This document shows, in pieces, positions 12,292-57,107 of a DNA stretch of 64,000 nt. The DNA is from Bacteroidales bacterium (lineage in GTDB: Bacteria; Bacteroidota; Bacteroidia; Bacteroidales; CG2-30-32-10). Position 1 is the stretch's first letter, and every line of letters begins with the position of its first letter. The position numbers were made by a program, and so were the translations under genes. The stretch is from assembly GCA_035353855.1 (NCBI GenBank), contig DAOQAK010000002.1:10967-74966 (forward strand), read 5' to 3'. The notes below the pieces were generated by a model. That model was not told where the DNA came from. It saw only the letters and a list, made by a program, of their open reading frames with translations, and did no database searches.

Positions 12292-13518
12292 TTATTTCGA
12301 ATACAATGCAATAATTTTCAAAATAACCTGGACTGCCTTTTCCATGCTTTCCACAGGAACATATTCCATTTTACCGTGGAAGTTATGTCCGCCTGCAAAT
12401 ATGTTGGGGCAGGGAAGTCCCATGAATGAAAGTCTTGCGCCATCGGTTCCTCCGCGGATAGGAACAACTTTCGGAACAATGCCAATTTCTTCCATTGCTT
12501 TTTTTGCGGTTTCAACAATGTGAAATGTTTTTTCAACTTGTTCACGCATGTTGTAATATTGATCTTTTATTTCAAGAACGACTGTATTTTCGCGGTATTT
12601 GGCGTTCATGTAATCGACCGTTTGTTTGATGAAAACTTTTTTAGCTTCAAATTTTTTACGGTCATGATCGCGGATGATATATTGGATGCTGGCATTTTCA
12701 ACACTGCCTTCCATTTTTATCAGATGATAAAATCCTTCATAATCCTGTGTGAATTCAGGTCTTTCATTAACAGGTAACATGGCGTTGAATTCCATGGCGA
12801 GAATCATTGCATTTATCATTTTATCCTTAGCATACCCGGGATGAATGTTTCTTCCGTTGAAAATAACTTTAGCATGAGCGGCATTGAAATTTTCATATTC
12901 AAGTTCCCCAATACCGCCGCCATCCATGGTATAAGCAAATTCTGCATTGAATTTTTCCACATCGAATTTATCAACGCCGCGACCTATTTCTTCATCAGGA
13001 GTAAACCCAATTTTTATTGTTCCGTGTTTTATTTCAGGATGGTCAATTAAAAATTTTACGGCAGTCATTATTTCAGCAATTCCTGCTTTATCATCGGCGC
13101 CAAGTAATGTATTTCCATCAGTAGTTATTAGTGTTTGTCCTATGTATTCTAATAATTCAGGAAATTCTTTAGTGGAAAGAACAATATTTTTTGTTTGATT
13201 CAAAACAATATCTTTACCATCGAAATTTTGAAGGATCTGCGGATTCACGTTAACACCGGGCATATCAGGGCTTGTGTCCATGTGAGCAATGAAACCTATT
13301 ACAGGGATTTTCTTAGTAGTGTTAGCAGGAAGTGTAGCCATCAGGTAACAATGTTCATCGAGTGAAACATCTTTCAGCCCCATTTCCTGAAGTTCGTTTT
13401 GTAATATCTTTGCAAGATCAAATTGTTTTGATGTGCTTGGATAAGTCTGTGAGTTATCATCAGACTGTGTATCGATTTTTATGTATTTCAAAAATCTTTC
13501 AAAAACTTCTTTTTTCAT
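12292..13518 (-). CDS. pepT: Peptidase T (tripeptide aminopeptidase, M20B)
   Basis: [45 protein letters not shown]. Confidence 0.96.
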
Positions 13519-13579: not shown

Positions 13580-13957
13580 TTAGTATCCATGTATTAATCG
13601 TTTGATACCATCTTTTAATTTAACTACATTAAAATTTATTAGCAAACCAATTCTGCATTTAGATAACTTCAAATATGTCAAAACTTGTGCAACATGAATA
13701 TCATTTATTGCATCAACTGATTTTATTTCAATAACCACGCTATTTTCAACAAGTAAGTCAATCCTATAACCGCATTCCATTTTTATTTCTTCATAAATTA
13801 AAGGAAGTGGTTTTTCTTTTTCTACAACTAATCCTGATTTAATAAGTTCATAAAATAAACACTCTTTATAAGCAGACTCAAGTAAACCAGGACCAAGATT
13901 GCTATGAACTTTAATTGCACACCCAATAATCTTTTCCGTTATTTCATTTTCTTTCAT
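13580..13957 (-). CDS. GxxExxY protein (PD-(D/E)XK_3 nuclease fold)
   Basis: MKENEITEKIIGCAIKVHSNLGPGLLESAY, YRIDLLVE, IEIKS, GLLINF; ATG at 13957 (the ORF-track extension reads through the repeat arm and opt). Confidence 0.92.
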   Translation of the reverse strand: MKENEITEKIIGCAIKVHSNLGPGLLESAYKECLFYELIKSGLVVEKEKPLPLIYEEIKMECGYRIDLLVENSVVIEIKSVDAINDIHVAQVLTYLKLSKCRIGLLINFNVVKLKDGIKRLIHGY

Positions 13958-13960
13958 TCT

Positions 13961-14000
13961 CTCTGTTGTTTCTGTGCCTGCTCGGTGAACTCTGTGGTTA
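13961..14000 (-). repeat. Right 40-bp inverted arm of the GxxExxY cassette
   Basis: Minus strand TAACCACAGAG-TTCACCGAG-CAGGCACAGAA-ACAACAGAG, ending 3 nt before the ATG. Confidence 0.8.
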
Positions 14001-14003
14001 TTT

Positions 14004-16016
14004 TTAATCTTCTTCTTTAGCCCGGAATGATTCCCATACAAAGTATGCTATAAGCCCTATAAAAGCAACTAAAGCTGTTACCTGTGCTCCAACAGAATTT
14101 TCATCACCCCAAACTTTAAGATTCAGTACTTCACCATCACCGGTAAAGAAAATGATGAATGCACCAATTACACCAAATAATGCTGCTCCTGCAATAAATC
14201 CCGATGATATAAGAATACCACGTTGAACACGGGAATTAGCCAGCTTTTCATTTTTAGTACTTTTAGTAAACCAATGATTCAGCAATCCACCAACAACAAG
14301 AGGCGTGTTAAGAGGAAGCGGAATGAACATACCTAATGCGAAAGCAAGAGGAGATATTTTAAGCCAGTTGATCAATATGGAAATAATTGCTCCTATGCCA
14401 AGTAAAACCCAGCTAACACCAGCGCCTGACATCAGCGGTTCAATAATTGCTGCCATTGCATTTGCCTGTGGTGCGGTCATTGGATTCGGGTGTTCGGGTG
14501 TTTGAACAAAACCATATGCCTGGTTTAAAATAAATATAACAATACCAACAGTTGCAGCAGAAACTAATGTCCCCAGGAATTTAAATGATTCTTGTTTTCT
14601 TGGAGTAGTTCCAAGCCAGTAACCAACTTTTAAATCGGTAATAAAACCTCCTGCCATTGACAATGCAGTACAAACAATTCCTCCAATTATCAATGAACTT
14701 ACCATTCCCTGCCAACCTCTTAATCCAACGGAAACAAGTACAGCTGAAGAAAGTATCAAAGTCATTAATGTCATACCTGAAACAGGATTAGAGCCAACAA
14801 TCGCTATTGCATTTGCGGCAACTGTTGTAAAAAGAAATGAAATAATCAGTACGGTTAATAAAGCTACGATTGCTTGTACCAGCGTAATTTTAACTCCGAA
14901 TATCAGGAAAATAAAAACGGCGATCAATGCCAGAAATATGAACAACATCACAAAAGACATTTTCAAATCTTTTTGTGTTCTTTCAACTTTGGCTTCAGCA
15001 TGAGTTTTTGCTCCCATTCCAAAAGCCAGTTTGAAAGCACTTCCAATTACTCCTGATGATTTTATAATTCCTATAATTCCGGCCATTGCAATAGCGCCAA
15101 TTCCGATAGGACGAACATAAGCTTTGAAAATTTCTTCTGCTGTCATGGCATCAAAAGGATTTACTCCTCCGCTTAATGTTGCCGAAAGATTTCCAATTTC
15201 GTTGACCAGAGGTATTAGAACTAACCAGGATAATAATGATCCAACAGTTATGATCAGTGCATATCGGAGTCCAACCAGATAACCAAAACTAAAAATCAGG
15301 GCGCTTACATTGAATTTAAGAACCATTTTTACTTTGGTGGCAAGTGTTTCTCCTATAGGAATAATACGTGTTGTAATTTCTTCACTCCAAAGTTTAAATG
15401 CGGAAAAGCAAAAATCAAAAATGCCACCAATTAAACCACTAACGATAAGTAGTTTTGCCTGGGTGCCGCCTTTTTCGCCGGTCATAAGGATTTCTGTAGT
15501 AGCTGTAGCTTCGGGGAAAGGAAGTTTTCCATGCATATCTTTTACAAAATATTTGCGGAAAGGAATAAGGAATAAAATTCCTAAGAAGCCTCCCAATAGT
15601 GATGAAAAGAATATCTGCCAAAAATCAACCTGTATTTCTGGATACTTTGCCTGAAGAATATATAGGCCGGGGATTGTGAAAACAGCACCTGCTACAATTA
15701 CTCCTGAACATGCCCCGATTGACTGGATAATTACATTCTGCCCGAGCGCATTTTTTTTACGCACAGCGGCTGAAGCTCCTACGGCAATAATTGAAATAGG
15801 AATGGCTGCTTCAAATACCTGTCCTATCTTTAATCCAGAGTATGCTGCAGCTGCTGAAAAAATAAGAGCCATTAATAATCCCATTCCTACAGACCATGCT
15901 GTAACTTCAGGAAACAGGCTGCTGGCTGGCATTACAGGTTTGTATTCTTCTCCCTCTTTTAATTCGCGATAAGCGTTTTCGGGTAAACTTTTAGTTTCAG
16001 TAATTTGTTCTGACAT
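14004..16016 (-). CDS. OPT-family oligopeptide transporter
   Basis: AAYSGLKIGQVFEAAIP, LPFPEATAT, SNPVSGMT, DLKVGYWLGTTPRKQ, APQANAMA; many TM segments. Confidence 0.93.
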   Translation of the reverse strand: MSEQITETKSLPENAYRELKEGEEYKPVMPASSLFPEVTAWSVGMGLLMALIFSAAAAYSGLKIGQVFEAAIPISIIAVGASAAVRKKNALGQNVIIQSIGACSGVIVAGAVFTIPGLYILQAKYPEIQVDFWQIFFSSLLGGFLGILFLIPFRKYFVKDMHGKLPFPEATATTEILMTGEKGGTQAKLLIVSGLIGGIFDFCFSAFKLWSEEITTRIIPIGETLATKVKMVLKFNVSALIFSFGYLVGLRYALIITVGSLLSWLVLIPLVNEIGNLSATLSGGVNPFDAMTAEEIFKAYVRPIGIGAIAMAGIIGIIKSSGVIGSAFKLAFGMGAKTHAEAKVERTQKDLKMSFVMLFIFLALIAVFIFLIFGVKITLVQAIVALLTVLIISFLFTTVAANAIAIVGSNPVSGMTLMTLILSSAVLVSVGLRGWQGMVSSLIIGGIVCTALSMAGGFITDLKVGYWLGTTPRKQESFKFLGTLVSAATVGIVIFILNQAYGFVQTPEHPNPMTAPQANAMAAIIEPLMSGAGVSWVLLGIGAIISILINWLKISPLAFALGMFIPLPLNTPLVVGGLLNHWFTKSTKNEKLANSRVQRGILISSGFIAGAALFGVIGAFIIFFTGDGEVLNLKVWGDENSVGAQVTALVAFIGLIAYFVWESFRAKEED

Positions 16017-50800: not shown

Positions 50801-53201
50801 AAGAAAGACTATTGCTCGAGCCATTAAAACTTATAGCAGGTTTATTATTTAAAAGAGAAATACTATTATTGTAAATTGGCTGGTTTGAAGAGTTTGATTG
50901 AGTGGCATTGTTGCCATTACCGGAACAATCATCCCATATAGTTACATTTGAACCTGAAAGATGGATTGTAGCAGCAGAATCAGCACGTAACCATAAATCC
51001 AATCCGGTTATGGAGTTTAGTGAAAAAATACTGAATAATAAAGCAGGTGTTATAATATAATCGCCACATAATCCATAGGCTGTTACACGCCAATAATATT
51101 TACCATAAGCATTTAAGTTTAGTTGTAATGTATTTTGAATTAGATTGGGGATACTTATAACGTTTGTTGTGAAAGTAGAATCTGTTGAATATTGCAAGGT
51201 ATAAGATGTTGCGTTTTCTGAAGTGTTCCATGAAAAATTGATATTATTATCGGTAGTTGTAAAATCATTAGATGGCAGGTACAGGGTAAAAGGCATAGGT
51301 GAAGGGGCATTGTCAACCACAGTTATCTGGTTTTGTATGCTGGAGGTGCAGCCTGAATCAGTAACTATGGTAAGGGTAATAATATAAGTATTTGCCGAGG
51401 TAAAAGTATGTGTTGGGTTAGTGTCGGTTGAATGAACAGTTCCATCGCCAAAATCCCAGTCCCACGAAATGATGTTGCCTTCGGGTGATGTGCTTTGGTC
51501 ATAAAAGGTATAAGGGTTATTGATACATGCTGATGAAACGGTAAAGGAGGGTATAGGGGTATAAGGTATATGGGTTTCTTTCGTTAAAGAATTACTGCAT
51601 GAACCATCATATACAGTCAGTTTTACATTGTAATTACCCCCGTTTGAAAATATGTGTGAAGGGTTTTCGCTGGTAGATGTTTGCCCATCGCCAAAATCCC
51701 AAAGCCAAGAAGTACCAGCGGGCGAGGAATTATTGGAAAATAGCGTCGCTTCGGTTGAACATCCGGTATTAGTGCTAAAATTAACATTTGGTGCAGTGCC
51801 AATTATAGTAACATTTATATTATCTGTTGCTTTACATCCGCTGCTATCAGTAACTGTAACACTATAAATTCCAGAGTCTGTAATAGTAATTTCGGGAGTA
51901 GTTTCCATGGTTGACCAGTTATAAGTTAATCCCGAAGGTAAAGGCGAGGGTGAAATAAGCCCAATGGTATTACCTGAGCAAATATTTTTATCAGGACCAA
52001 GGCTGGCAATTGCCGGAAAATCATCTTCGGTAACATATATAGTTGGCGAAACCGCCGAACATAATGAATCATCAGTTACAGTTACACTATAATTACCCGG
52101 AGTGCTTACATTAATAGTAGGTGAGGTTAATCCACCAGTCCAGTTATAAGTATAACTTCCAATCAAACCTGTTGATAATACTATACTATTTCCAGAACAG
52201 AATGAAGTATCATTAAGTGTTATTAAAGGATATGATACATTTAATGTATCATGTGATTTATATCCAAAAGCATCTGTCACTTCGACCCAATATGTACCTG
52301 ATGAATCAACATTAATGGATTGTGTTGTTGTGCCGGTAGACCAAAGATAAGAAGAAAACCAGTCTCCAGCATTAAGAGTGTAATTGCAAAATTTATTTAA
52401 AATAGTATCTTTTCCTAAGTTAACAGGAGGAAAATATTTATACCGTAAATAATCCTCGACATTTTGTCTTTCATTATCAGCGAGGGCTTTGTTGTAGATA
52501 ATTATATCTGCAATATAGCCCGATAAATAATAATTTAAACCAGTCTCGCTACCAATTACCCAGTTCCAAGTATTGCTATATGTAGGGAAACTTGCATCAT
52601 AAACAGTTCTAATGAAGCTGCCATTGCAATATATATTCCATCCTGTGGTTGATTTAATAAATGATAAAATATAAAAATTATTTACTAAAATAAAATTAGA
52701 ATTTCCTAAATCTACATTTGCATTGCTTCCTGCCCATCCTATTCCATCAACTGCATCAGAACCAACAGCCAATGCCCATCTTGCTCCAGTACTTTGAGAA
52801 GAACCGAGGAAAATTTCATAAGTATTCTTACTGGTGCCAGTAGAAATAACAGTAAAAAAAGAATATTCGGTTGAAGATAATAATGGAAAAGAAAGACTAT
52901 TGCTCGAGCCATTAAAACTTATAGCAGGTTTATTATTTAAAAGAGAAATACTATTATTGTAAATTGGCTGGTTTGAAGAGTTTGATTGAGTGGCATTGTT
53001 GCCATTACCGGAACAATCATCCCATATAGTTACATTTGAACCTGAAAGATGGATTGTAGCAGCAGAATCAGCACGTAACCATAATTGTAAACCAGTTATG
53101 TCTTTTGGCGTAATATTTTGACTATAACAAAAATTTATTATGCCCTGAAAGATCAAAGTAAAGAAAAAAAAATATATTTTCAATTGTTGGAATAATTTCA
53201 T
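47844..53201 (-). CDS. Large T9SS-secreted protein: two identical LamG-like domains, multiple PKD domains, C-terminal CARDB-like region and CTD
   Basis: LWLRADS...IADIIIYNKAL twice; many WDFGDG PKD motifs; PFPTPT...LKFVKY tail. Confidence 0.85.
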   Translation of the reverse strand: MKLFQQLKIYFFFFTLIFQGIINFCYSQNITPKDITGLQLWLRADSAATIHLSGSNVTIWDDCSGNGNNATQSNSSNQPIYNNSISLLNNKPAISFNGSSNSLSFPLLSSTEYSFFTVISTGTSKNTYEIFLGSSQSTGARWALAVGSDAVDGIGWAGSNANVDLGNSNFILVNNFYILSFIKSTTGWNIYCNGSFIRTVYDASFPTYSNTWNWVIGSETGLNYYLSGYIADIIIYNKALADNERQNVEDYLRYKYFPPVNLGKDTILNKFCNYTLNAGDWFSSYLWSTGTTTQSINVDSSGTYWVEVTDAFGYKSHDTLNVSYPLITLNDTSFCSGNSIVLSTGLIGSYTYNWTGGLTSPTINVSTPGNYSVTVTDDSLCSAVSPTIYVTEDDFPAIASLGPDKNICSGNTIGLISPSPLPSGLTYNWSTMETTPEITITDSGIYSVTVTDSSGCKATDNINVTIIGTAPNVNFSTNTGCSTEATLFSNNSSPAGTSWLWDFGDGQTSTSENPSHIFSNGGNYNVKLTVYDGSCSNSLTKETHIPYTPIPSFTVSSACINNPYTFYDQSTSPEGNIISWDWDFGDGTVHSTDTNPTHTFTSANTYIITLTIVTDSGCTSSIQNQITVVDNAPSPMPFTLYLPSNDFTTTDNNINFSWNTSENATSYTLQYSTDSTFTTNVISIPNLIQNTLQLNLNAYGKYYWRVTAYGLCGDYIITPALLFSIFSLNSITGLDLWLRADSAATIHLSGSNVTIWDDCSGNGNNATQSNSSNQPIYNNSISLLNNKPAISFNGSSNSLSFPLLSSTEYSFFTVISTGTSKNTYEIFLGSSQSTGARWALAVGSDAVDGIGWAGSNANVDLGNSNFILVNNFYILSFIKSTTGWNIYCNGSFIRTVYDASFPTYSNTWNWVIGSETGLNYYLSGYIADIIIYNKALADNERQNVEDYLRYKYFPPVNLESDIWVNNFCVDTIDAGNRFVSYLWNTGDTTSKILVNSGDTVWVDVVDGFGFTSSDTIIVHKPILNINTNDTLCLGDSTTLHTGMGSPYSVMWEWQNDTINGDSYIIHAGDSVMLHVFDTVGCSATRLITMYADSFPLMDLLGASTASICSDDTVFPAIDTSLITSYDWYDGTSHYTTPYYIVPISWVGTGSHNLSLTSYNHRGCKVSDVVAVSAPGQKPFAAFSATAGCEPFTTAFTNLSTVPSPAFINYRHWDFGDGDTSIFNSPTHQFAEPGKHLVTLTVSTNKGCSASITDTAYVYSKPKPKFSPIIGCSGVPLQFTDKTTNVLGEIDTWTWEFNDPYSTNNTSSIKNPSHIYDSTGYYWVILTAQSEYGCTATDSAQIHIRLAPKVDFSYTNVCDGNPVYFTNETVDVLGIVSQNWDFGDGNSYTINSPVYTFDSAGTFPVSLTVQSINGCIVSDTENVIVHSIPEINYTAPDSICASYSYILDDNSFVLPPDSITQWSWVIENIGTFNEENPSVTFTSEGDYPVTLTVSSNAGCSDNVSATIHVNPIPTASFLPDEFYGMPPFTVNFTNNSVNALSSYWNFGDGTSSSLLNPQHTYNSLDTFNVMLVVTNSALCTDTAYQELYSIPTTADVGVTNVVTDQQNGFINVSADLWNYGTRKIYELYLYAKAAGGTMFMESWSDYTNPILPGTSIPYTFNAQFAISEENNFDYICVEAQIPNVNPDDNPSNNEECITIKNKFTAFIPFPTPTNDIININFILPFKGQVDVDLYGEKGELVEHVYSGEANKGLNKIQYDISKLNLGVYVYRITFNNDFKILKFVKY
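50332..50996. repeat. 665-bp intragenic repeat, copy B
   Basis: Line-by-line reading shows no mismatch versus 52420-53084 (offset 2088). Confidence 0.9.
52420..53084. repeat. 665-bp intragenic repeat, copy A
   Basis: Identical to 50332-50996. Confidence 0.9.
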
Positions 53202-53227
53202 TAAATATTATTACTAATTATATAATG

Positions 53228-53235
53228 CAAATATA
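53228..53235 (-). promoter_or_regulatory. -7 promoter box for the 1785-aa gene
   Basis: TATATTTG on the minus strand 26 nt upstream of the ATG. Confidence 0.55.
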
Positions 53236-53349
53236 GGAAGTTTTCGTATCAACTGCAAGCATAGTTTAGTATTATTATCCCATATTTCAATCTGTTTCAT
53301 TTCTGTTTTCGCATAAAGCTGCAAAGCCTTTCTAATTCTTTTAATTTTT

Positions 53350-53450
53350 GCTTATGTCTTACGACTTGCTACTTGGGACTTGTTACTTACGACTTACTAC
53401 TTGCTACTTGTGTCTTGCTACTTGTGTCTTGCTACTTGTGTCTTGTGTCT
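53350..53450. repeat. Degenerate heptamer array (14 units, consensus WCTTRNN)
   Basis: GCTTATG TCTTACG ACTTGCT ACTTGGG ACTTGTT ACTTACG ACTTACT ACTTGCT ACTTGTG TCTTGCT ACTTGTG TCTTGCT ACTTGTG TCTTGTG. Confidence 0.9.
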
Positions 53451-53621
53451 CCACCACCTGACTATTGCCCAAACCAGTTGCTCAACCTAAAAACCAATGT
53501 ACATTGAAGGTATAGAGGTATAAGGGGAATAGGGGTATATGGTATAAACATTAAATAAATCTGAAAATTCAATATTGAGTATTGGACATTGGATATTGAA
53601 AAAGTTATTGGTTGAAAGGTG

Positions 53622-53840
53622 TAGCAGCTAGTCAGGGCTGATGTCAATGGTCATAAGTGACCTAATCACTTTTAACTATTGACTAAACCAGCTGCCACAA
53701 ACCAAAAACATAAATCCATTTTTTCAATTTAATATTTACTATTTGCTATCATCAATCCGCCGTGGCGGAGCTATATAGAATGTCAAAGGTTGATGGGTGT
53801 GGCGACTATCCAAGTCAATAGTCAAATGGTTATAGTATTA
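53622..53840 (+). repeat. 219-bp direct repeat, copy 1 (spans hairpin unit 1, TCCGCC-GT-GGCGGA spacer and half of unit 2)
   Basis: 3 mismatches versus 55113-55331 (offset 1491). Confidence 0.9.
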
Positions 53841-54101
53841 CCATCATTAATAAATAACATTTGCCCAAATCCGCTGCCACAAACCAAAAACATAAAACCA
53901 TTTTTTCAATTTACTATTTGCAATCATCTATATACCATATTTCCGTATATACTATTCCCCATTAAACCTATCAGGATTCAGTATAAATAATTTAATCAAA
54001 CAATAATGATTAATTTTGATTTTATATATTTGTTATCATTAATTTTTCTATCATATATTTTTATTCGTTAATTTTAGGAACTATTTAAATTTTATCTTTT
54101 A

Positions 54102-54419
54102 ATGCAAAAAGCTCATGGAAATAAAAATGATATTTTAAAATTATCTGCTCATTTATTTTGGGATGTTGACAGGAATAATATTGATTTTAATAAAAATAAA
54201 AAATTTATTGTTCAGAGAGTGTTGGAATATGGACTATTATGTGACTGGCAAATAATATATTCATATTATGGCATTGATGATATTGCAAAAACAGCAATAA
54301 CTATAAAAGATATTGATAAAAAATCGCTGGCTTTTATTGCATTATTATCAAAAATACCTAAAGAAAAATTTTTATGTTACACTACAATGCAGTTGATGCC
54401 GCAACACTGGAACTTTTAA
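54102..54419 (+). CDS. DUF6922-family protein (type IV TA partner)
   Basis: LSAHLFWDVD, FIVQRVLEYG, DWQII; overlaps the downstream nucleotidyltransferase by 46 bp; TATATTTG box at 54025-54032. Confidence 0.75.
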   Translation: MQKAHGNKNDILKLSAHLFWDVDRNNIDFNKNKKFIVQRVLEYGLLCDWQIIYSYYGIDDIAKTAITIKDIDKKSLAFIALLSKIPKEKFLCYTTMQLMPQHWNF

Positions 54420-54997
54420 AAAGCCTGCAAAAACTTCCTGTCTTTTCCGAATTACGTCTTGTGGGAGGTACATCATTAGCTTTACAAATAGGTCATCGTA
54501 AATCCATTGATTTGGATTTGTTTGGAAACATTCAAAGTGATGAACTTGAAATTAATAAAAATTTAAAAAAATTGGGTTCTGTTAAACTGATAAATAAAAC
54601 AGAAAATATTTATGTTTATCTTATTAATGATATTAAAATTGACATTGTTAATTATCATTATAAATGGCTTCAAAAGCCGTTGATTTCAGGTGAAATAATA
54701 CTGGCAGGGAAAAAAGATATTGCTGCAATGAAATTATCTGCCATTACAGGAAGAGGTACAAAAAAAGATTTTATTGATATTTACTTTTTACTTCAAAAAT
54801 TCAACATGGATGAGATGCTTTATTTATATAAACAAAAATTTTATGATGGCTCTGAATTTCTTGTTTTAAAAAGTTTAGCTTATTTTGATGATGCAGATAC
54901 AGAACAGTGTCCGGTGATGTTAAAGCCGATAGATTGGCAAAAGGTAAAAAGTAAAATCAGTAAAGAGATAGAAAAATATGTAAAAAATAAATATTGA
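54374..54997 (+). CDS. AbiEii/AbiGii-family nucleotidyltransferase toxin
   Basis: RLVGGTSLALQIGHRKSIDLDLF, IAAMKLSAITGRGTKKDFIDIYFL. Confidence 0.88.
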   Translation: MLHYNAVDAATLELLKSLQKLPVFSELRLVGGTSLALQIGHRKSIDLDLFGNIQSDELEINKNLKKLGSVKLINKTENIYVYLINDIKIDIVNYHYKWLQKPLISGEIILAGKKDIAAMKLSAITGRGTKKDFIDIYFLLQKFNMDEMLYLYKQKFYDGSEFLVLKSLAYFDDADTEQCPVMLKPIDWQKVKSKISKEIEKYVKNKY

Positions 54998-55112
54998 TGA
55001 ATGAAGATGTAAAAGCGCAAATGTAAAATTGAAGTAAAAAAATAAAATTACCATTATTCATTTTCAATTATCCATCCGTGGCGCTATATTAAATGTCAAA
55101 GGTTGATGGGCA

Positions 55113-55331
55113 TAGCAGCTAGTCTGGGCTAATGTCAATGGTCATAAGTGACCTAATCACTTTTAACTATTGACTAAACCAGCTGCCACAAACCAAAAAC
55201 ATAAATCCATTTTTTCAATTTAATATTTACTATTTGCTATCATCAATCCGCCGTGGCGGAGCTATATAGAATGTCAAAGGTTGATGGGTGTGGCGACTAG
55301 CCAAGTCAATAGTCAAATGGTTATAGTATTA
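55113..55331 (+). repeat. 219-bp direct repeat, copy 2
   Basis: Matches 53622-53840; followed by further hairpin units to 55528. Confidence 0.9.
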
Positions 55332-55796
55332 ACCCCATCAACAAAAAACATATAACCGAGCTTGTTGCCATCAACCTACAACCAATCCGCCTTGGCGGAC
55401 ATCAATTTACTATTTTCTATAAAAAGGTCAAAGGTTGATGGGTGTAGCGACTAGCCAAGTCAAAGGTCAAAGGGTTATAGTATAACCACCGTTAACGAAA
55501 AAAATTTACCTAAACCAGCTGCCCAACCCTAAAACCACTAAAGTTTTAGAAGGTATAGGGGTATAGGGATATATTGACATAGACAAACTTACTCTTCGCG
55601 ACTTTGCAACTCCGCGTGAAATAAAAAGATTCAGTCCGCAGTCTTTAGTTGGCAATATACTACTAATGACTATGAATGACAACAAATGACTATGAATGAC
55701 GACGAAGCAATTTAATGATATGGCTTTATAAAAATTTCAATATTTTTTATTAATTTTGAAATTTACCATTTACCATTATCAATTTTACGTAATAAG

Positions 55797-57107
55797 ATGT
55801 CTGATACTGTAATTCAGGTTGAAAATTTAAGCAAACAATACCGTTTAGGGATAGTGGGAGCAACAACTATTTCCGACGATATAAGAAGATATTGGGCTAA
55901 AATAAGAGGCAAAGATGACCCAACGCTTAGAATAGGCCAGGTAAATACTTTAAATAAAATTCAGAATTCAGAATTCAGTTCCGATAAGTATCGGAATCAG
56001 AATTATGTTTGGGCACTGAAGGATATTAATTTTGAAGTTAAGCAGGGCGAAGTTCTTGGAATTATAGGTAAAAATGGTGCAGGTAAATCAACACTGTTAA
56101 AAATATTATCGAAAGTAACGGGTCCTACTACAGGTAATGTAAAGGTGAAAGGCCGTATAGCTTCATTGCTTGAAGTAGGTACGGGTTTTCATGGAGAGCT
56201 TACAGGAAGGGAAAATATTTTCTTAAATGGAGCCATATTGGGAATGACCAAAGCAGAGATAAAAGGCAAATTTGATGAGATAGTTGATTTTTCGGGTATA
56301 GAACGTTATATCGATACTCCTGTTAAACGTTATTCGAGTGGAATGTATGTGCGCTTGGCTTTCGCAGTTGCTGCACATCTTGAACCGGAAATATTAATAT
56401 TAGATGAAGTATTAGCAGTAGGAGATGCTGAGTTTCAAAAAAAATGCTTAGGTAAAATAGGGGATGCAGCGAAAGGGGGGCGAACAATAATATTTGTTAG
56501 TCATAATATAGGTGCAATAAGACAACTGTGCTCAAATAGCATATTACTAACTTCAGGTGAGATTGAAGCACAGGGTACAACAAGTGAGATTTGTGATTTA
56601 TACTTAAATAAAACGAATATTTCTGAAGGCAAAGCAGAAATTAAATTTCAAGAAAACTTGAATAAAGAGTTTCAATTATTGGTATTAAAGTTAATGAATA
56701 AAGAATCAGAAATTATTAATAATTTTTCCTGTGATGAGGATATTTATATAGATATGATTTGTGTTTCCAGGAAACCTGTTCCCGGTTTATATGGAGCATT
56801 ATTAATATATAATAATGATGGAATTCATGTTTTGATGTCAGATACTTTCGATATAGGAGAGAATATATTTGATAAATTATCTTCAGGGAATTATAATATT
56901 CGTATAAAAATTCCATCCCGAACTTTAGGACATGGATCATATAAAGTAATGATAAACTTTACCAGTTCGCAAAGTTTTAATAATTTTTGGATTGACACAC
57001 ATGAATGTGCAGCCTCTTTCCGTATTGACGATATAACCACAGATAGAGGTAATCATAGAGCAGGTTATTTTAGTACTTTGCTTAAATGGGAAACAAATAA
57101 ATTATAA
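55797..57107 (+). CDS. wzt: Polysaccharide ABC exporter ATPase Wzt with C-terminal Wzt-C domain
   Basis: GKNGAGKST, GFHGELTGRENIFLNG, YSSGMYVRLAF, DEVLAVGD; ~170-aa C-terminal extension. Confidence 0.92.
   Translation: MSDTVIQVENLSKQYRLGIVGATTISDDIRRYWAKIRGKDDPTLRIGQVNTLNKIQNSEFSSDKYRNQNYVWALKDINFEVKQGEVLGIIGKNGAGKSTLLKILSKVTGPTTGNVKVKGRIASLLEVGTGFHGELTGRENIFLNGAILGMTKAEIKGKFDEIVDFSGIERYIDTPVKRYSSGMYVRLAFAVAAHLEPEILILDEVLAVGDAEFQKKCLGKIGDAAKGGRTIIFVSHNIGAIRQLCSNSILLTSGEIEAQGTTSEICDLYLNKTNISEGKAEIKFQENLNKEFQLLVLKLMNKESEIINNFSCDEDIYIDMICVSRKPVPGLYGALLIYNNDGIHVLMSDTFDIGENIFDKLSSGNYNIRIKIPSRTLGHGSYKVMINFTSSQSFNNFWIDTHECAASFRIDDITTDRGNHRAGYFSTLLKWETNKL

What the first reader, a model, noticed from the sequence alone, without database searches (positions are those of the whole stretch)
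53460..55528. Array of ~95-bp hairpin units with conserved ends and variable cores, hosting a TA cassette
Seen: five units (53610-53703, 53788-53885, 55101-55194, 55279-55376, 55433-55528) plus a right-half relic (53460-53487). They start GGTTGAWRGGYRTRGCRRCTA and mostly end AGCTGCCACAAACC-like; the ends pair (TGTAGCAGCTAG/CCAGCTGCCACA, with mismatches that are G.U on the minus strand) around inner stems such as GTCAATGGTCATAAGTGA/TCACTTTTAACTATTGAC. Units are separated by TCCGCC-NN-GGCGGA mini-palindromes (53756, 55247, 55386) at 178/178/154-bp spacing, and the DUF6922-AbiEii pair sits between units 2 and 3. No integrase, cas or transposase is nearby. Inference: an unnamed REP/BIME-like or cassette-array system, or a multicopy structured RNA.
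Basis: partly seen in the sequence, partly recalled or inferred. Interest (0 to 1): 0.75.

Follow-up and report, generated by a model that had tools for sequence, protein, structure and literature searches.

The report
Dispersed intergenic hairpin repeats around toxin-antitoxin pair
The five "units" are worn copies of a small non-coding hairpin repeat scattered between genes throughout this uncultured Bacteroidales genome; the toxin-antitoxin pair merely sits between two blocks of them, so this is an unnamed relative of familiar bacterial "junk" repeats and not a gene-cassette system.

Summary
In detail: five ~115-nt units, a half-unit relic, three TCCGCC-NN-GGCGGA mini-palindromes and a DUF6922-AbiEii pair lie where stated. 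The array is not a local device. The same unit occurs about 55 times at 33 loci on 28 contigs; 54 of 55 copies are intergenic, and 14 loci are arrays, 13 of them head-to-tail. Each element is oriented: a short head, an imperfect ~100-nt hairpin, and a conserved ~45-nt tail.

Copies at different loci are old (median 62% identity, maximum 88%). Tandem neighbours can be identical. The family occurs in 6 of 13 genomes of the taxonomic family and in 2 of the other genomes among 301 sampled from the order. Syntenic sites show presence or absence in both directions. In one relative, a subfamily carries 14-bp terminal inverted repeats, like a MITE.

No Rfam family, integron integrase or attC core matches, and no Y1/RAYT gene lies beside a unit.

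The TA pair is bracketed by a 200-bp direct repeat with one mismatch. TA homologues in two relatives have no units beside them. One other locus has an R-M cassette bracketed by an 84-bp perfect repeat that includes a unit arm.

Verdict: an unnamed BIME/ERIC/MITE-like repeat family. The cassette-array reading is not supported.

The parts
53459..53505 (+). Relic: 3' arm of a truncated unit (..GACTATTGCCCAAACCAGTTGCTCAACC) plus the start of its 3' flank
   Evidence: Arm-only HMM hit, E = 3.6e-6. The sequence parallels the end of u5 at 55500-55545 (D5).
53505..53595 (+). Type-B linker: a GGTATAG/GGGTATA-rich stretch plus a ~70-nt 'head' that leads into u1
   Evidence: The same head precedes units at C6:32791-32908 and C16:37014-37136 (86-87% identity). 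The GGTATAGGGG motif recurs after u5 (family D5).
53596..53714 (+). Unit u1 (hairpin core 53610-53703)
   Evidence: nhmmer E = 6.4e-27; CM 109 bits; ssDNA fold z = -5.0 on the reverse strand and -4.2 on the forward strand.
53715..53773 (+). Type-A linker: tail motif, mini-palindrome TCCGCCGTGGCGGA (53756-53769), and head of u2
53774..53895 (+). Unit u2
   Evidence: nhmmer E = 2.1e-33; CM 127 bits.
53896..53929 (+). Tail of u2 (CCATTTTTTCAATTTACTATTTGCAATCATC). The non-repeat DNA carrying the TA pair starts directly after it.
54102..54419 (+). DUF6922 gene (antitoxin position), 105 aa
   Evidence: Pfam PF21956, E = 4.8e-21.
54374..54997 (+). AbiEii-type nucleotidyltransferase toxin gene, 207 aa. 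The two genes together are 26.9% GC, against 33.5% for the genome.
   Evidence: Pfam PF08843, E = 8.9e-15; GC values.
55040..55086 (+). Degenerate tail, decayed mini-palindrome (ATCCGTGGCG) and head before u3
   Evidence: Read directly against the type-A linker.
55087..55205 (+). Unit u3 (copy of u1)
   Evidence: nhmmer E = 2.9e-28.
55247..55260 (+). Mini-palindrome TCCGCCGTGGCGGA
   Evidence: 25 genome copies, all intergenic, 11 within 150 bp of a unit.
55265..55385 (+). Unit u4 (its 5' half is a copy of u2)
   Evidence: nhmmer E = 1e-31.
55386..55399 (+). Mini-palindrome TCCGCCTTGGCGGA
55422..55539 (+). Unit u5 (hairpin largely eroded)
   Evidence: nhmmer E = 3.1e-32; ssDNA fold z = +0.2 and -0.7.
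55540..55590 (+). Terminal type-B flank (..GAAGGTATAGGGGTATAGGG..), matching 53488-53545
   Evidence: family D5; same flank after the C6 unit.
53641..53840 (+). Left copy of the 200-bp near-perfect direct repeat (u1 3' part, linker, u2 5' part)
   Evidence: One mismatch in 200 bp against 55132-55331. Identity falls to about 70-80% just outside.
55132..55331 (+). Right copy of the 200-bp direct repeat. The two copies bracket the TA pair at 1491-bp spacing.

Best explanation
The units are members of an unnamed, lineage-restricted family of non-coding intergenic repeats in an uncultured Bacteroidales lineage. Each element is oriented and modular: a short head, an imperfect ~100-nt hairpin whose arms look like degenerate GTCAAWG heptads around a GTAGCrrCTGGTT / AACCAGCTGCC core, and a ~45-nt tail.

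Shown:
- The family is dispersed, almost strictly intergenic, patchy among relatives, and polymorphic at syntenic sites.
- Copies at different loci are old, while tandem neighbours can be identical.
- Arrays are head-to-tail mosaics with linkers and GC mini-palindromes.

Inferred:
- The element once spread by transposition-like insertion, using an enzyme supplied in trans that I could not identify. A subfamily in a relative still has MITE-type terminal inverted repeats.
- Arrays grow and homogenise locally by unequal recombination, slippage and gene conversion.
- In this genome the family is now mostly decaying, neutral or selfish DNA.

The TA pair is not cargo of a cassette machine. It lies in array DNA and is bracketed by a 200-bp near-perfect direct repeat. 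That repeat was made recently, either by conversion or duplication between the two array halves, or by insertion of the TA module with a long target duplication. The direct repeat predicts RecA-type loss of a 1491-bp segment carrying the TA pair.
For: - Family size and location: 55 significant copies on 28 contigs, forming 33 loci. 54 of 55 are intergenic in a genome that is 87% coding by crude ORF calls. 14 loci hold more than one unit, and 13 of these have a single orientation.
- Modular anatomy: conserved head and tail. The tail motif has 22 sites against 1 in the control, and 16 lie downstream of a unit on the same strand. Truncated copies keep the 5' arm and the tail.
- Hairpin: 85% of cells pair against 20-53% when the partners are slid. 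7 pairs show changes on both sides. 4 positions have G.U as the commonest pair. The reverse strand folds better in 37 of 47 copies.
- Age: inter-locus identity has median 0.62 and maximum 0.88; intra-locus identity reaches 1.0.
- Distribution: 6 of 13 genomes in the taxonomic family, with 10 to 109 matches each. 2 of the other genomes among 301 sampled from the order. A strict pattern gives only 4 chance hits in 185k species.
- Presence or absence at syntenic sites: the own pyrG spacer has a unit, but G005 and G006 lack it. G012 and G009 have units where own C53:14787-14980 and C1:49693-49828 have none.
- MITE-like subfamily: G009 has a subfamily with 14-bp TIRs GTWACTGTTCRGGT, 25 exact sites against 0 in the control.
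- TA context: a 200-bp repeat with 1 mismatch and sharp edges. TA homologues at 79% and 75% nt identity in G006 and G010 have no units beside them, and in G010 the pair also sits next to an ABC-2 permease gene.
Against: - No mobilising enzyme was identified, and no autonomous parent element carries the same ends.
- No target-site duplication could be read, because the flanks of comparable sites are too diverged.
- No two loci in this genome share a near-identical unit, so mobility here is historical and not demonstrated.
- The strand asymmetry and the conserved G.U pairs hint at a single-strand (RNA or ssDNA) role that a purely neutral model does not predict. They could also simply be inherited from a master copy.
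- Expression data could not be consulted.
- The genes were called with a crude ORF rule, not a gene finder.
Confidence: 0.7

Rival explanations
1. REPIN/RAYT-type partnership: the hairpins are maintained and copied by a single-copy, domesticated Y1 (HuH) transposase encoded elsewhere in the genome, acting on one folded DNA strand.
For: - The genome encodes 3 intact Y1 genes and one subclass-2.6-like gene (YIHNNP motif) with an in-frame TGA. Subclass 2.6 is the Bacteroidetes class said to pair with 'atypical secondary structures' (PMC6006769).
- The units have a GTAG in the 5' arm, a strand-asymmetric fold (37 of 47) and conserved wobble pairs.
- Unit size is similar to REPINs.
Against: - None of the 31 Y1 loci examined across the 13 genomes of the taxonomic family has a unit within 1.5 kb.
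- The own Y1 genes are flanked by other, short GTAG-centred palindromes.
- Y1 genes occur in all 13 genomes, whereas the units occur in 6.
- Each arm is not itself a REP stem-loop.
- Arrays are head-to-tail, not inverted doublets.
Confidence: 0.1
2. Structured RNA family: the units, or whole arrays, are transcribed and act as RNA, for example as small RNAs, transcript stabilisers or insulators. The reverse strand of the unit would be the functional one.
For: - The reverse strand is more stable as RNA in 37 of 47 copies, mean -29.2 against -24.3 kcal/mol.
- Four stem positions have G.U as the commonest pair (15-18 of 29 sequences), and 7 pairs carry compensatory changes.
- The location is strictly intergenic.
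Against: - No Rfam family matches, even at E up to 10.
- Orientation relative to co-directional neighbours is mixed, 10 loci with and 5 against, and the majority orientation puts the weaker-folding strand in read-through transcripts.
- No terminator-like or promoter-like excess in the region.
- Several copies fold no better than shuffles, mean z = -2.1.
- Shuffle controls for covariation are only marginal: score reached in 68 of 500 shuffles, pairs with double changes in 33 of 500.
- Copy number ranges from 0 to ~100 among related genomes.
Confidence: 0.1
3. Integrase-free capture platform (a cassette-like reading): hairpin units are break-prone or recombinogenic sites at which small addiction or defence modules integrate with long target duplications, so the arrays act as landing pads.
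For: - Two of 33 loci have gene modules bracketed by long direct repeats that contain unit sequence, and both modules are addiction-type.
- The first is the TA pair in the window (200 bp, 1 mismatch).
- The second is an MjaI-like R-M cassette at C41. Its 84-bp perfect repeat spans the start of xth, a spacer and a unit 5' arm.
- Homologues of that cassette lie on contigs other than the xth contig in G002, G005 and G011.
- Insertion of R-M units with long target duplications is documented (PMC2853133).
- The TA genes are 26.9% GC against 33.5% for the genome.
Against: - There are only two cases.
- No empty-site allele was found for either case.
- The TA repeat is made of repeat-family DNA, so 'chance insertion between repeated sequences' or later gene conversion explains it equally well.
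- The TA pair also lies next to ABC-exporter genes in G010, which suggests an older residence at this locus.
Confidence: 0.08
4. Integron-like attC array (CALIN): the units are recombination sites for an integron-type tyrosine recombinase, and the spaces between them are cassettes.
For: - Conserved ends with variable cores, unit lengths inside the attC range, a folded-strand bias, and a TA module within the array (TA cassettes are typical of chromosomal integrons; from my own knowledge).
Against: - The ends read 5'-GGTTG..CAACC-3' on either strand, the opposite order to attC (RYYYAAC..GTTRRRY).
- 33 dispersed loci, most with one or two units.
- 4 of 5 inter-unit spaces have no ORF.
- No integron integrase: best TIGR02249 score is 129 bits against a cut-off of 265, the same level as generic recombinases in control genomes.
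Confidence: 0.02

Closest known systems
BIMEs / REP clusters of Enterobacteria and Pseudomonas (Gilson, Bachellier; reviewed in PMC6006769, PMC3733652)
   Same: Intergenic and multi-copy. Hairpin-forming units are combined with conserved linker motifs into mosaics. Clusters are built by reiterating unit plus flanking DNA. Copy number differs greatly between related genomes.
   Different: The units are 100-120 nt, not 20-40 nt. Only one GTAG occurs per unit. Arrays are head-to-tail, not alternating HH/TT dimers. No RAYT gene is flanked by them.
ERIC / IRU elements of Enterobacteriaceae (about 127-bp imperfect palindromes; from my own knowledge)
   Same: Similar size. The whole element is an imperfect palindrome. 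Intergenic. Old, diverged copies, with size variants caused by internal insertions or deletions. No known transposase.
   Different: Unrelated sequence and phylum. The elements here carry an asymmetric tail and form tandem arrays.
MITEs such as Correia/NEMIS, RUP, and modular BOX elements (boxA-boxB(n)-boxC)
   Same: Non-autonomous, about 100-200 bp, and modular. Insertion polymorphism occurs at syntenic sites. A subfamily in G009 has 14-bp TIRs.
   Different: In the window's genome there are no discrete TIRs, no readable target-site duplication and no related IS. Copies are too old to show recent movement.
REPIN-RAYT systems (Bertels & Rainey, PMC3116915)
   Same: A long hairpin of about 100 nt formed by inverted arms, with strand-asymmetric structure. 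Y1 transposase genes are present in the genome.
   Different: The flanking association with a RAYT was tested and not met. The arms are not REP stem-loops. Inheritance is not strictly orthologous.
R-M / addiction-module 'insertion with long target duplication' (Furuta et al. 2010, PMC2853133)
   Same: A small addiction module with no mobility gene, bracketed by long direct repeats: 200 bp around the TA pair, and 84 bp around the R-M cassette on C41.
   Different: The TA repeat consists of multi-copy repeat DNA, a case that paper classes separately as chance insertion between repeats. No empty site is available.

Membership tests
REP / BIME | Unit is a 20-40-bp imperfect palindrome tagged by GTAG (or CGTC) | tested here: not met
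   Units are 100-120 nt. A single GTAG sits in the 5' arm (GGTGTAGC), and the partner arm reads ATGGC/GGGC.
REP / BIME | High-copy, extragenic distribution | tested here: met
   About 55 copies, 54 of them intergenic.
REP / BIME | Clusters are mosaics of units and conserved linker motifs | tested here: met
   Two linker types, a tail motif and TCCGCCNNGGCGGA mini-palindromes. However, orientation is head-to-tail in 13 of 14 arrays.
REPIN-RAYT | A single-copy RAYT gene flanked by the same repeats | tested here: not met
   No unit within 1.5 kb of any of 31 Y1 loci in 13 genomes. The own Y1 genes are flanked by other palindromes.
REPIN-RAYT | Element is two inverted REP stem-loops separated by a spacer | tested here: inconclusive
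   The arms are inverted and pair with each other, but neither arm folds as its own REP hairpin in the MFE structures.
MITE | Terminal inverted repeats | tested here: inconclusive
   In the own genome the whole element is an imperfect palindrome without discrete TIRs, and GTWACTGTTCRGGT is absent next to units. In G009 a subfamily has that 14-bp TIR.
MITE | Target-site duplication | tested here: inconclusive
   The flanks of filled and empty syntenic sites are too diverged to align base by base. One G009 copy shows a possible CTTTTTTCA duplication.
MITE | Presence/absence polymorphism at orthologous sites | tested here: met
   The pyrG spacer is filled in the own genome and empty in G005 and G006. 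C53 and C1 spacers are empty in the own genome and filled in G012 and G009.
MITE | A related autonomous IS with the same ends | tested here: not met
   No arm pairs enclose a transposase gene. No TIR pair at IS distance in G009. The genomes are fragmented MAGs, so absence is weak evidence.
Integron attC / CALIN | R''/R' core sites 5'-RYYYAAC...GTTRRRY-3' | tested here: not met
   The ends are GGTTGA...TCAACC on both strands.
Integron attC / CALIN | Integron integrase (IntI) in the genome | tested here: not met
   TIGR02249 best score 129 bits against a cut-off of 265. The assembly is 96% complete.
Integron attC / CALIN | ORF-attC alternation in the array | tested here: not met
   Only one of the five inter-unit spaces carries genes.
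Any Rfam RNA family | Covariance-model match | tested here: not met
   Only chance-level hits at E >= 0.56, far below the gathering scores.
Insertion with long target duplication (PMC2853133) | Module without mobility genes, bracketed by a direct repeat longer than 30 bp | tested here: met
   200 bp with 1 mismatch around the TA pair. 84 bp with 0 mismatches around the R-M cassette on C41.
Insertion with long target duplication (PMC2853133) | A related genome shows the repeat once and no insert (empty site) | not testable with these tools
   The only other records of the TA protein are the same contig and a 1285-bp fragment. The metagenome scan gave relatives at 72% protein identity or less.

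The most novel reading that the evidence does not exclude
The hairpin units are integrase-free landing pads. Their extruded or stalled hairpins create breaks at which small addiction or defence modules (here a DUF6922-AbiEii pair, and on contig C41 an MjaI-type R-M cassette) are captured with long target duplications. The resulting direct repeats later allow the module to pop out. Together this would amount to a recombination-based cassette exchange system in Bacteroidales.
Probability: 0.08. Interest if true: 0.6.

Novelty: new member of a known kind. Interest (0 to 1): 0.3.

Why it matters
As it stands, this is mainly a matter of annotation. It names and delimits one more lineage-specific intergenic repeat family in uncultured Bacteroidales, and it explains why assemblies of these genomes break at such sites (a Logan contig ends inside u2 and u3). 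It also warns against reading unit-flanked genes as cassettes.

Two points could matter more. First, the family shows that a single hairpin module can be packaged in different ways in related genera: with head, tail and mini-palindromes here, and with 14-bp TIRs in G009. That is useful for working out how such repeats are mobilised in a phylum where no REP/RAYT-type partner has been shown. Second, two addiction modules bracketed by long direct repeats containing unit DNA give a testable link between hairpin repeats and the gain or loss of defence genes.

Tried and rejected
- Rfam scan of 52800-56200 at E up to 10: only chance hits.
- RNAalifold on a MAFFT alignment of 45 copies gave no structure. 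I replaced it with a covariance-model alignment.
- Strict two-part pattern over 185k species genomes: 4 unrelated chance hits, with the own genome withheld. This used the only genome-contig scan.
- Metagenome scan with the neighbouring Wzt protein: best relatives reached only 72% identity over part of the protein and about 56% over most of its length, so no strain-level comparison was possible.
- Exact-protein look-up of AbiEii: only the same contig from JGI sample 3300010352 and a 1285-bp Logan fragment with identical sequence.
- Link to the GxxExxY mini-nuclease elements noted earlier in this window: the 8 paralogues are flanked by other periodic motifs (CGCAAAG, CACAAAG and similar), not by unit sequence. 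Rejected.
- Replication-strand bias: unit orientation against local GC skew was 18 of 28, p = 0.18. Not significant.
- Terminator or promoter role: no excess of consensus sites. I found no Bacteroidetes-type TAnnTTTG box in the tail by eye.
- Autonomous parent element: arm pairs 0.3-6 kb apart were three weak cases. One of them led to the R-M cassette on C41, not to a transposase.
- Y1 transposase co-occurrence: Y1 genes are in all 13 genomes of the taxonomic family, so the test is uninformative.
Full report
**1. What is at the locus.** A profile built from the five recovers them at window 53596-53714, 53774-53895, 55087-55205, 55265-55385 and 55422-55539, with E = 6e-27 to 2e-33 (the window is C2:10967-74966 of a 3.63-Mb, 92-contig assembly). 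The half-unit relic at 53459-53505 is found with an arm-only profile (E = 3.6e-6). The three TCCGCC-NN-GGCGGA mini-palindromes are at 53756, 55247 and 55386. The two genes between u2 and u3 are DUF6922 and AbiEii.

Two things were not in the finding. First, u1-linker-u2 and u3-linker-u4 form a duplicated block (292 nt at 90%). Its core, 53641-53840 = 55132-55331, has a single mismatch in 200 bp, and identity drops sharply to about 70-80% just outside. Second, 53488-53545 (GGTATAG-rich) recurs after u5 at 55540-55590.

**2. The array is part of a genome-wide family.**
- The five-unit profile finds 55 significant copies on 28 contigs. A covariance model gives the same set.
- They form 33 loci. 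14 hold two to five units, and in 13 of those all units point the same way.
- 54 of 55 copies lie between my crude ORF calls, in a genome that is 87% coding and 33.5% GC.
- They occur between divergent, convergent and co-directional genes. In co-directional settings, 10 loci point with the genes and 5 against.

**3. Anatomy.**
- The 47-copy alignment and the anchored flanks show an oriented, modular element.
- The parts are a head (aAAAAGTCAAt), a hairpin (GGTTGAaaGGTGTAGCrrCTgGTtaaGTCAAwgGT ... CCATCAAC..AAAACAttcAACCaAACCAGcTGCC(at)CAACC) and a tail (AAAAACatATAACaaaTTCAATTTAATATTTTCTATTTGCTATCATC).
- The tail motif has 22 sites in the genome against 1 for the reversed control. All are intergenic, 19 lie within 120 bp of a unit, and 16 are downstream on the same strand.
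- Truncated copies keep the 5' arm and the tail. Other copies carry 110-180-nt insertions in the loop.
- By eye, the arms have a roughly 7-nt beat (GTCAAwG / CwTTGAC). I did not quantify this.
- Arrays join units through two linker types. Type A is tail plus head, with or without one or two TCCGCCNNGGCGGA mini-palindromes. Type B is a GGTATAG-rich stretch plus a 70-nt head, shared by the C2, C6 and C16 arrays.
- The mini-palindrome is a repeat in its own right: 25 copies, all intergenic, and 11 near units.

**4. Structure.**
- On a covariance-model alignment of 29 distinct copies, the outer 21 pairs are 85% paired, against 20-53% when the 3' partners are slid. 7 pairs carry changes on both sides (28 cells; 1 of 500 shuffles reaches this). 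The other covariation measures are marginal.
- At four positions G.U is the commonest pair. Accordingly, the reverse strand of the unit folds better as RNA in 37 of 47 copies (mean -29.2 against -24.3 kcal/mol).
- Some copies elsewhere are nearly perfect hairpins (C42:36071-36204, -54 kcal/mol).
- The window's own units are eroded. As ssDNA, u1 has z = -5.0, u2-u4 range from -2.1 to -3.1, and u5 is about 0.
- The alignment was fitted to the model, which favours the structure.

**5. Age, distribution and mobility.**
- Units at different loci are 62% identical at the median and 88% at best. Tandem neighbours reach 100%, as in the three 185-bp repeats on C9. Dispersal in this genome is therefore old, while local amplification and homogenisation is recent.
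- The model finds the family in 6 of 13 genomes of the taxonomic family: about 109 matches in G009 (another genus), 19 in G010, 12 in G001 (same genus), 11 in G005 and 10 in G012. It also finds it in 2 of the other genomes among 301 sampled from the order.
- Syntenic comparisons show both kinds of polymorphism. The pyrG-GSCFA spacer holds a unit here but not in G005 or G006. G001 has a different hairpin at that spot. G012 and G009 carry a unit where the own C53 and C1 spacers have none.
- In G009, a homogeneous subfamily is bounded by 14-bp terminal inverted repeats GTWACTGTTCRGGT. There are 25 exact sites against 0 for the control, and elements are 187-199 bp long. That motif is absent next to units in the window's genome.
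- The hairpin therefore behaves as a module that travels in different packages.

**6. What it is not.**
- Rfam has no match.
- It is not an integron-type array. The ends read GGTTG..CAACC, not RYYYAAC..GTTRRRY. No integron integrase passes the cut-off (129 against 265 bits). Loci are dispersed, and only one inter-unit space holds genes.
- It does not meet the REPIN-RAYT criterion. The genome has three Y1 genes with the YxxNQEEHH signature of subclass 1.2, and one YIHNNP (subclass 2.6-like) gene with an in-frame TGA (classes from PMC6006769). These are flanked by other short palindromes. No unit lies within 1.5 kb of any of 31 Y1 loci across the 13 genomes of the taxonomic family.
- There is no excess of terminator-like or promoter-like sites.
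- Orientation does not follow GC skew significantly (18 of 28, p = 0.18).

**7. The TA pair.**
- Homologues of the pair exist in G006 (79% nt identity) and G010 (75%) without units beside them. In G010 the pair also lies next to an ABC-2 exporter gene, as it lies next to wzt here. This suggests the module is an older resident of this neighbourhood and not fresh cargo.
- The DNA between the two 200-bp repeat copies begins with a unit 3' arm plus tail and ends with a decayed tail, mini-palindrome and head. The TA genes are thus embedded in array DNA on both sides.
- The simplest reading is that both flanking spacers were colonised by the repeat and were later homogenised by a roughly 200-bp conversion or duplication tract.
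- The alternative is insertion of the module with a long target duplication, a mode documented for R-M units (PMC2853133).
- Either way, the repeat predicts deletion of a 1491-bp segment by homologous recombination.
- I could not test for TA-less alleles.

**8. A second bracketed module.**
- Searching for unit arms without partners led to C41. There, an 84-bp perfect direct repeat (12617-12700 = 15482-15565) comprises the first 35 nt of xth, the spacer and the 5' arm of a unit.
- It brackets an MjaI-like endonuclease gene, a 122-aa ORF and an N6/N4 methylase gene.
- Homologues of this cassette lie on contigs other than the xth contig in G002, G005 and G011.
- Two addiction-type modules next to units, each with long direct repeats, is suggestive of hairpin-associated insertion. 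But it is only two cases and neither has an empty site. I carry this as the novel reading at low probability.

**9. Comparison and verdict.**
- The family works like BIME/ERIC/BOX-type intergenic repeats and like MITEs: non-coding, hairpin-forming, modular, patchy among relatives, and amplified locally.
- It is not a member of any named family that I could test.
- It differs from REP/BIME in unit size and head-to-tail arrays, from REPINs in lacking a flanking RAYT, and from classic MITEs (in this genome) in lacking discrete TIRs and a readable target-site duplication.
- The same genome holds several other repeat families, and earlier notes of this scan describe comparable unnamed hairpin families in other uncultured Bacteroidales. 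Those notes are unchecked and are not used as evidence.
- I therefore rate it a new member of a known kind, with modest interest.

Noticed in passing
own genome C41:12617-15565 (outside the window): An MjaI-like R-M cassette (RE_MjaI, a 122-aa ORF, and N6_N4_Mtase with an SNase-like tail) is bracketed by an 84-bp perfect direct repeat. The repeat contains the start of xth, a spacer and the 5' arm of a hairpin unit. Homologues of the cassette lie on contigs other than the xth contig in three relatives. It looks like 'insertion with long target duplication'.
   Followed up: partly
own genome C6:32274-32390 and at least 25 other sites (e.g. C9:28358-28474, C51:6300-6416): A 117-bp element ATACCGATTGTA...ACAATTGGTAT with imperfect terminal inverted repeats. 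Copies are 96-100% identical, which suggests a young MITE. About 20 copies at 91-96% identity occur in relative G006.
   Followed up: partly
own genome C41:15355-15465 and at least 23 other sites: A second young repeat of about 107 bp (TATACCGACAGAAAA..GCAAACCTGATAAGAACGAGTATAAA), with copies 93-99% identical. It is also present in G001 and G003.
   Followed up: no
own genome C69:296-640, C32:9644-9988, C8:32123-32467: Three different ~155-aa Y1 (IS200-like) genes with the YxxNQEEHH motif (subclass 1.2 of PMC6006769). Each is flanked by its own arrays of short GTAG-centred palindromes (GTCCCGTAGGGAC, GCCACGTAGTGGC, GCCTACGGC). That paper lists this subclass as having no associated structures.
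   Followed up: partly
own genome C4:31119-31334 region: A subclass-2.6-like RAYT (NHVH ... YIHNNP) interrupted by an in-frame TGA. It is preceded by a pair of small hairpins (CCCCGACCTTTAGGTCGGGG and GGCTTTAGCC) that also occur next to a unit on C51.
   Followed up: no
window 53344-53458 and 55659-55706: Short-period tandem motifs flank the array: CTTGCTA/CTTGTGT heptads on the left and ATGACTATGA/ATGACAACAA decamers on the right. Short matches to both occur in several relatives. They are not complementary to each other.
   Followed up: partly
genome-wide, 25 sites (e.g. window 53756, 55247, 55386; C7:67424; C16:26855): The mini-palindrome TCCGCC-NN-GGCGGA is an independent intergenic repeat. 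Away from units it is often centred in longer palindromes whose arms are built of periodic motifs.
   Followed up: partly
window 13580-14041 and 7 paralogues (C1, C9 x3, C47, C65, C52): The GxxExxY-type small nuclease genes are each boxed by inverted periodic arms (CGCAAAG/CACAAAG-type motifs). They are unrelated in sequence to the hairpin units.
   Followed up: partly
L007 (G010:C260) 1495-1545 and 2485-2545: In relative G010 the homologous DUF6922-AbiEii pair is bracketed by direct repeats of about 45 bp (TTTTTTGACATTT..CCATTTTACATYATCAATCATCAAT). A second small gene pair lies beside it.
   Followed up: no
own genome C70:1618-1775 and C70:1803-2702: A unit with a loop insertion lies 28 bp from the end of a XerC/D-like tyrosine recombinase gene (299 aa). 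This is probably coincidence.
   Followed up: no
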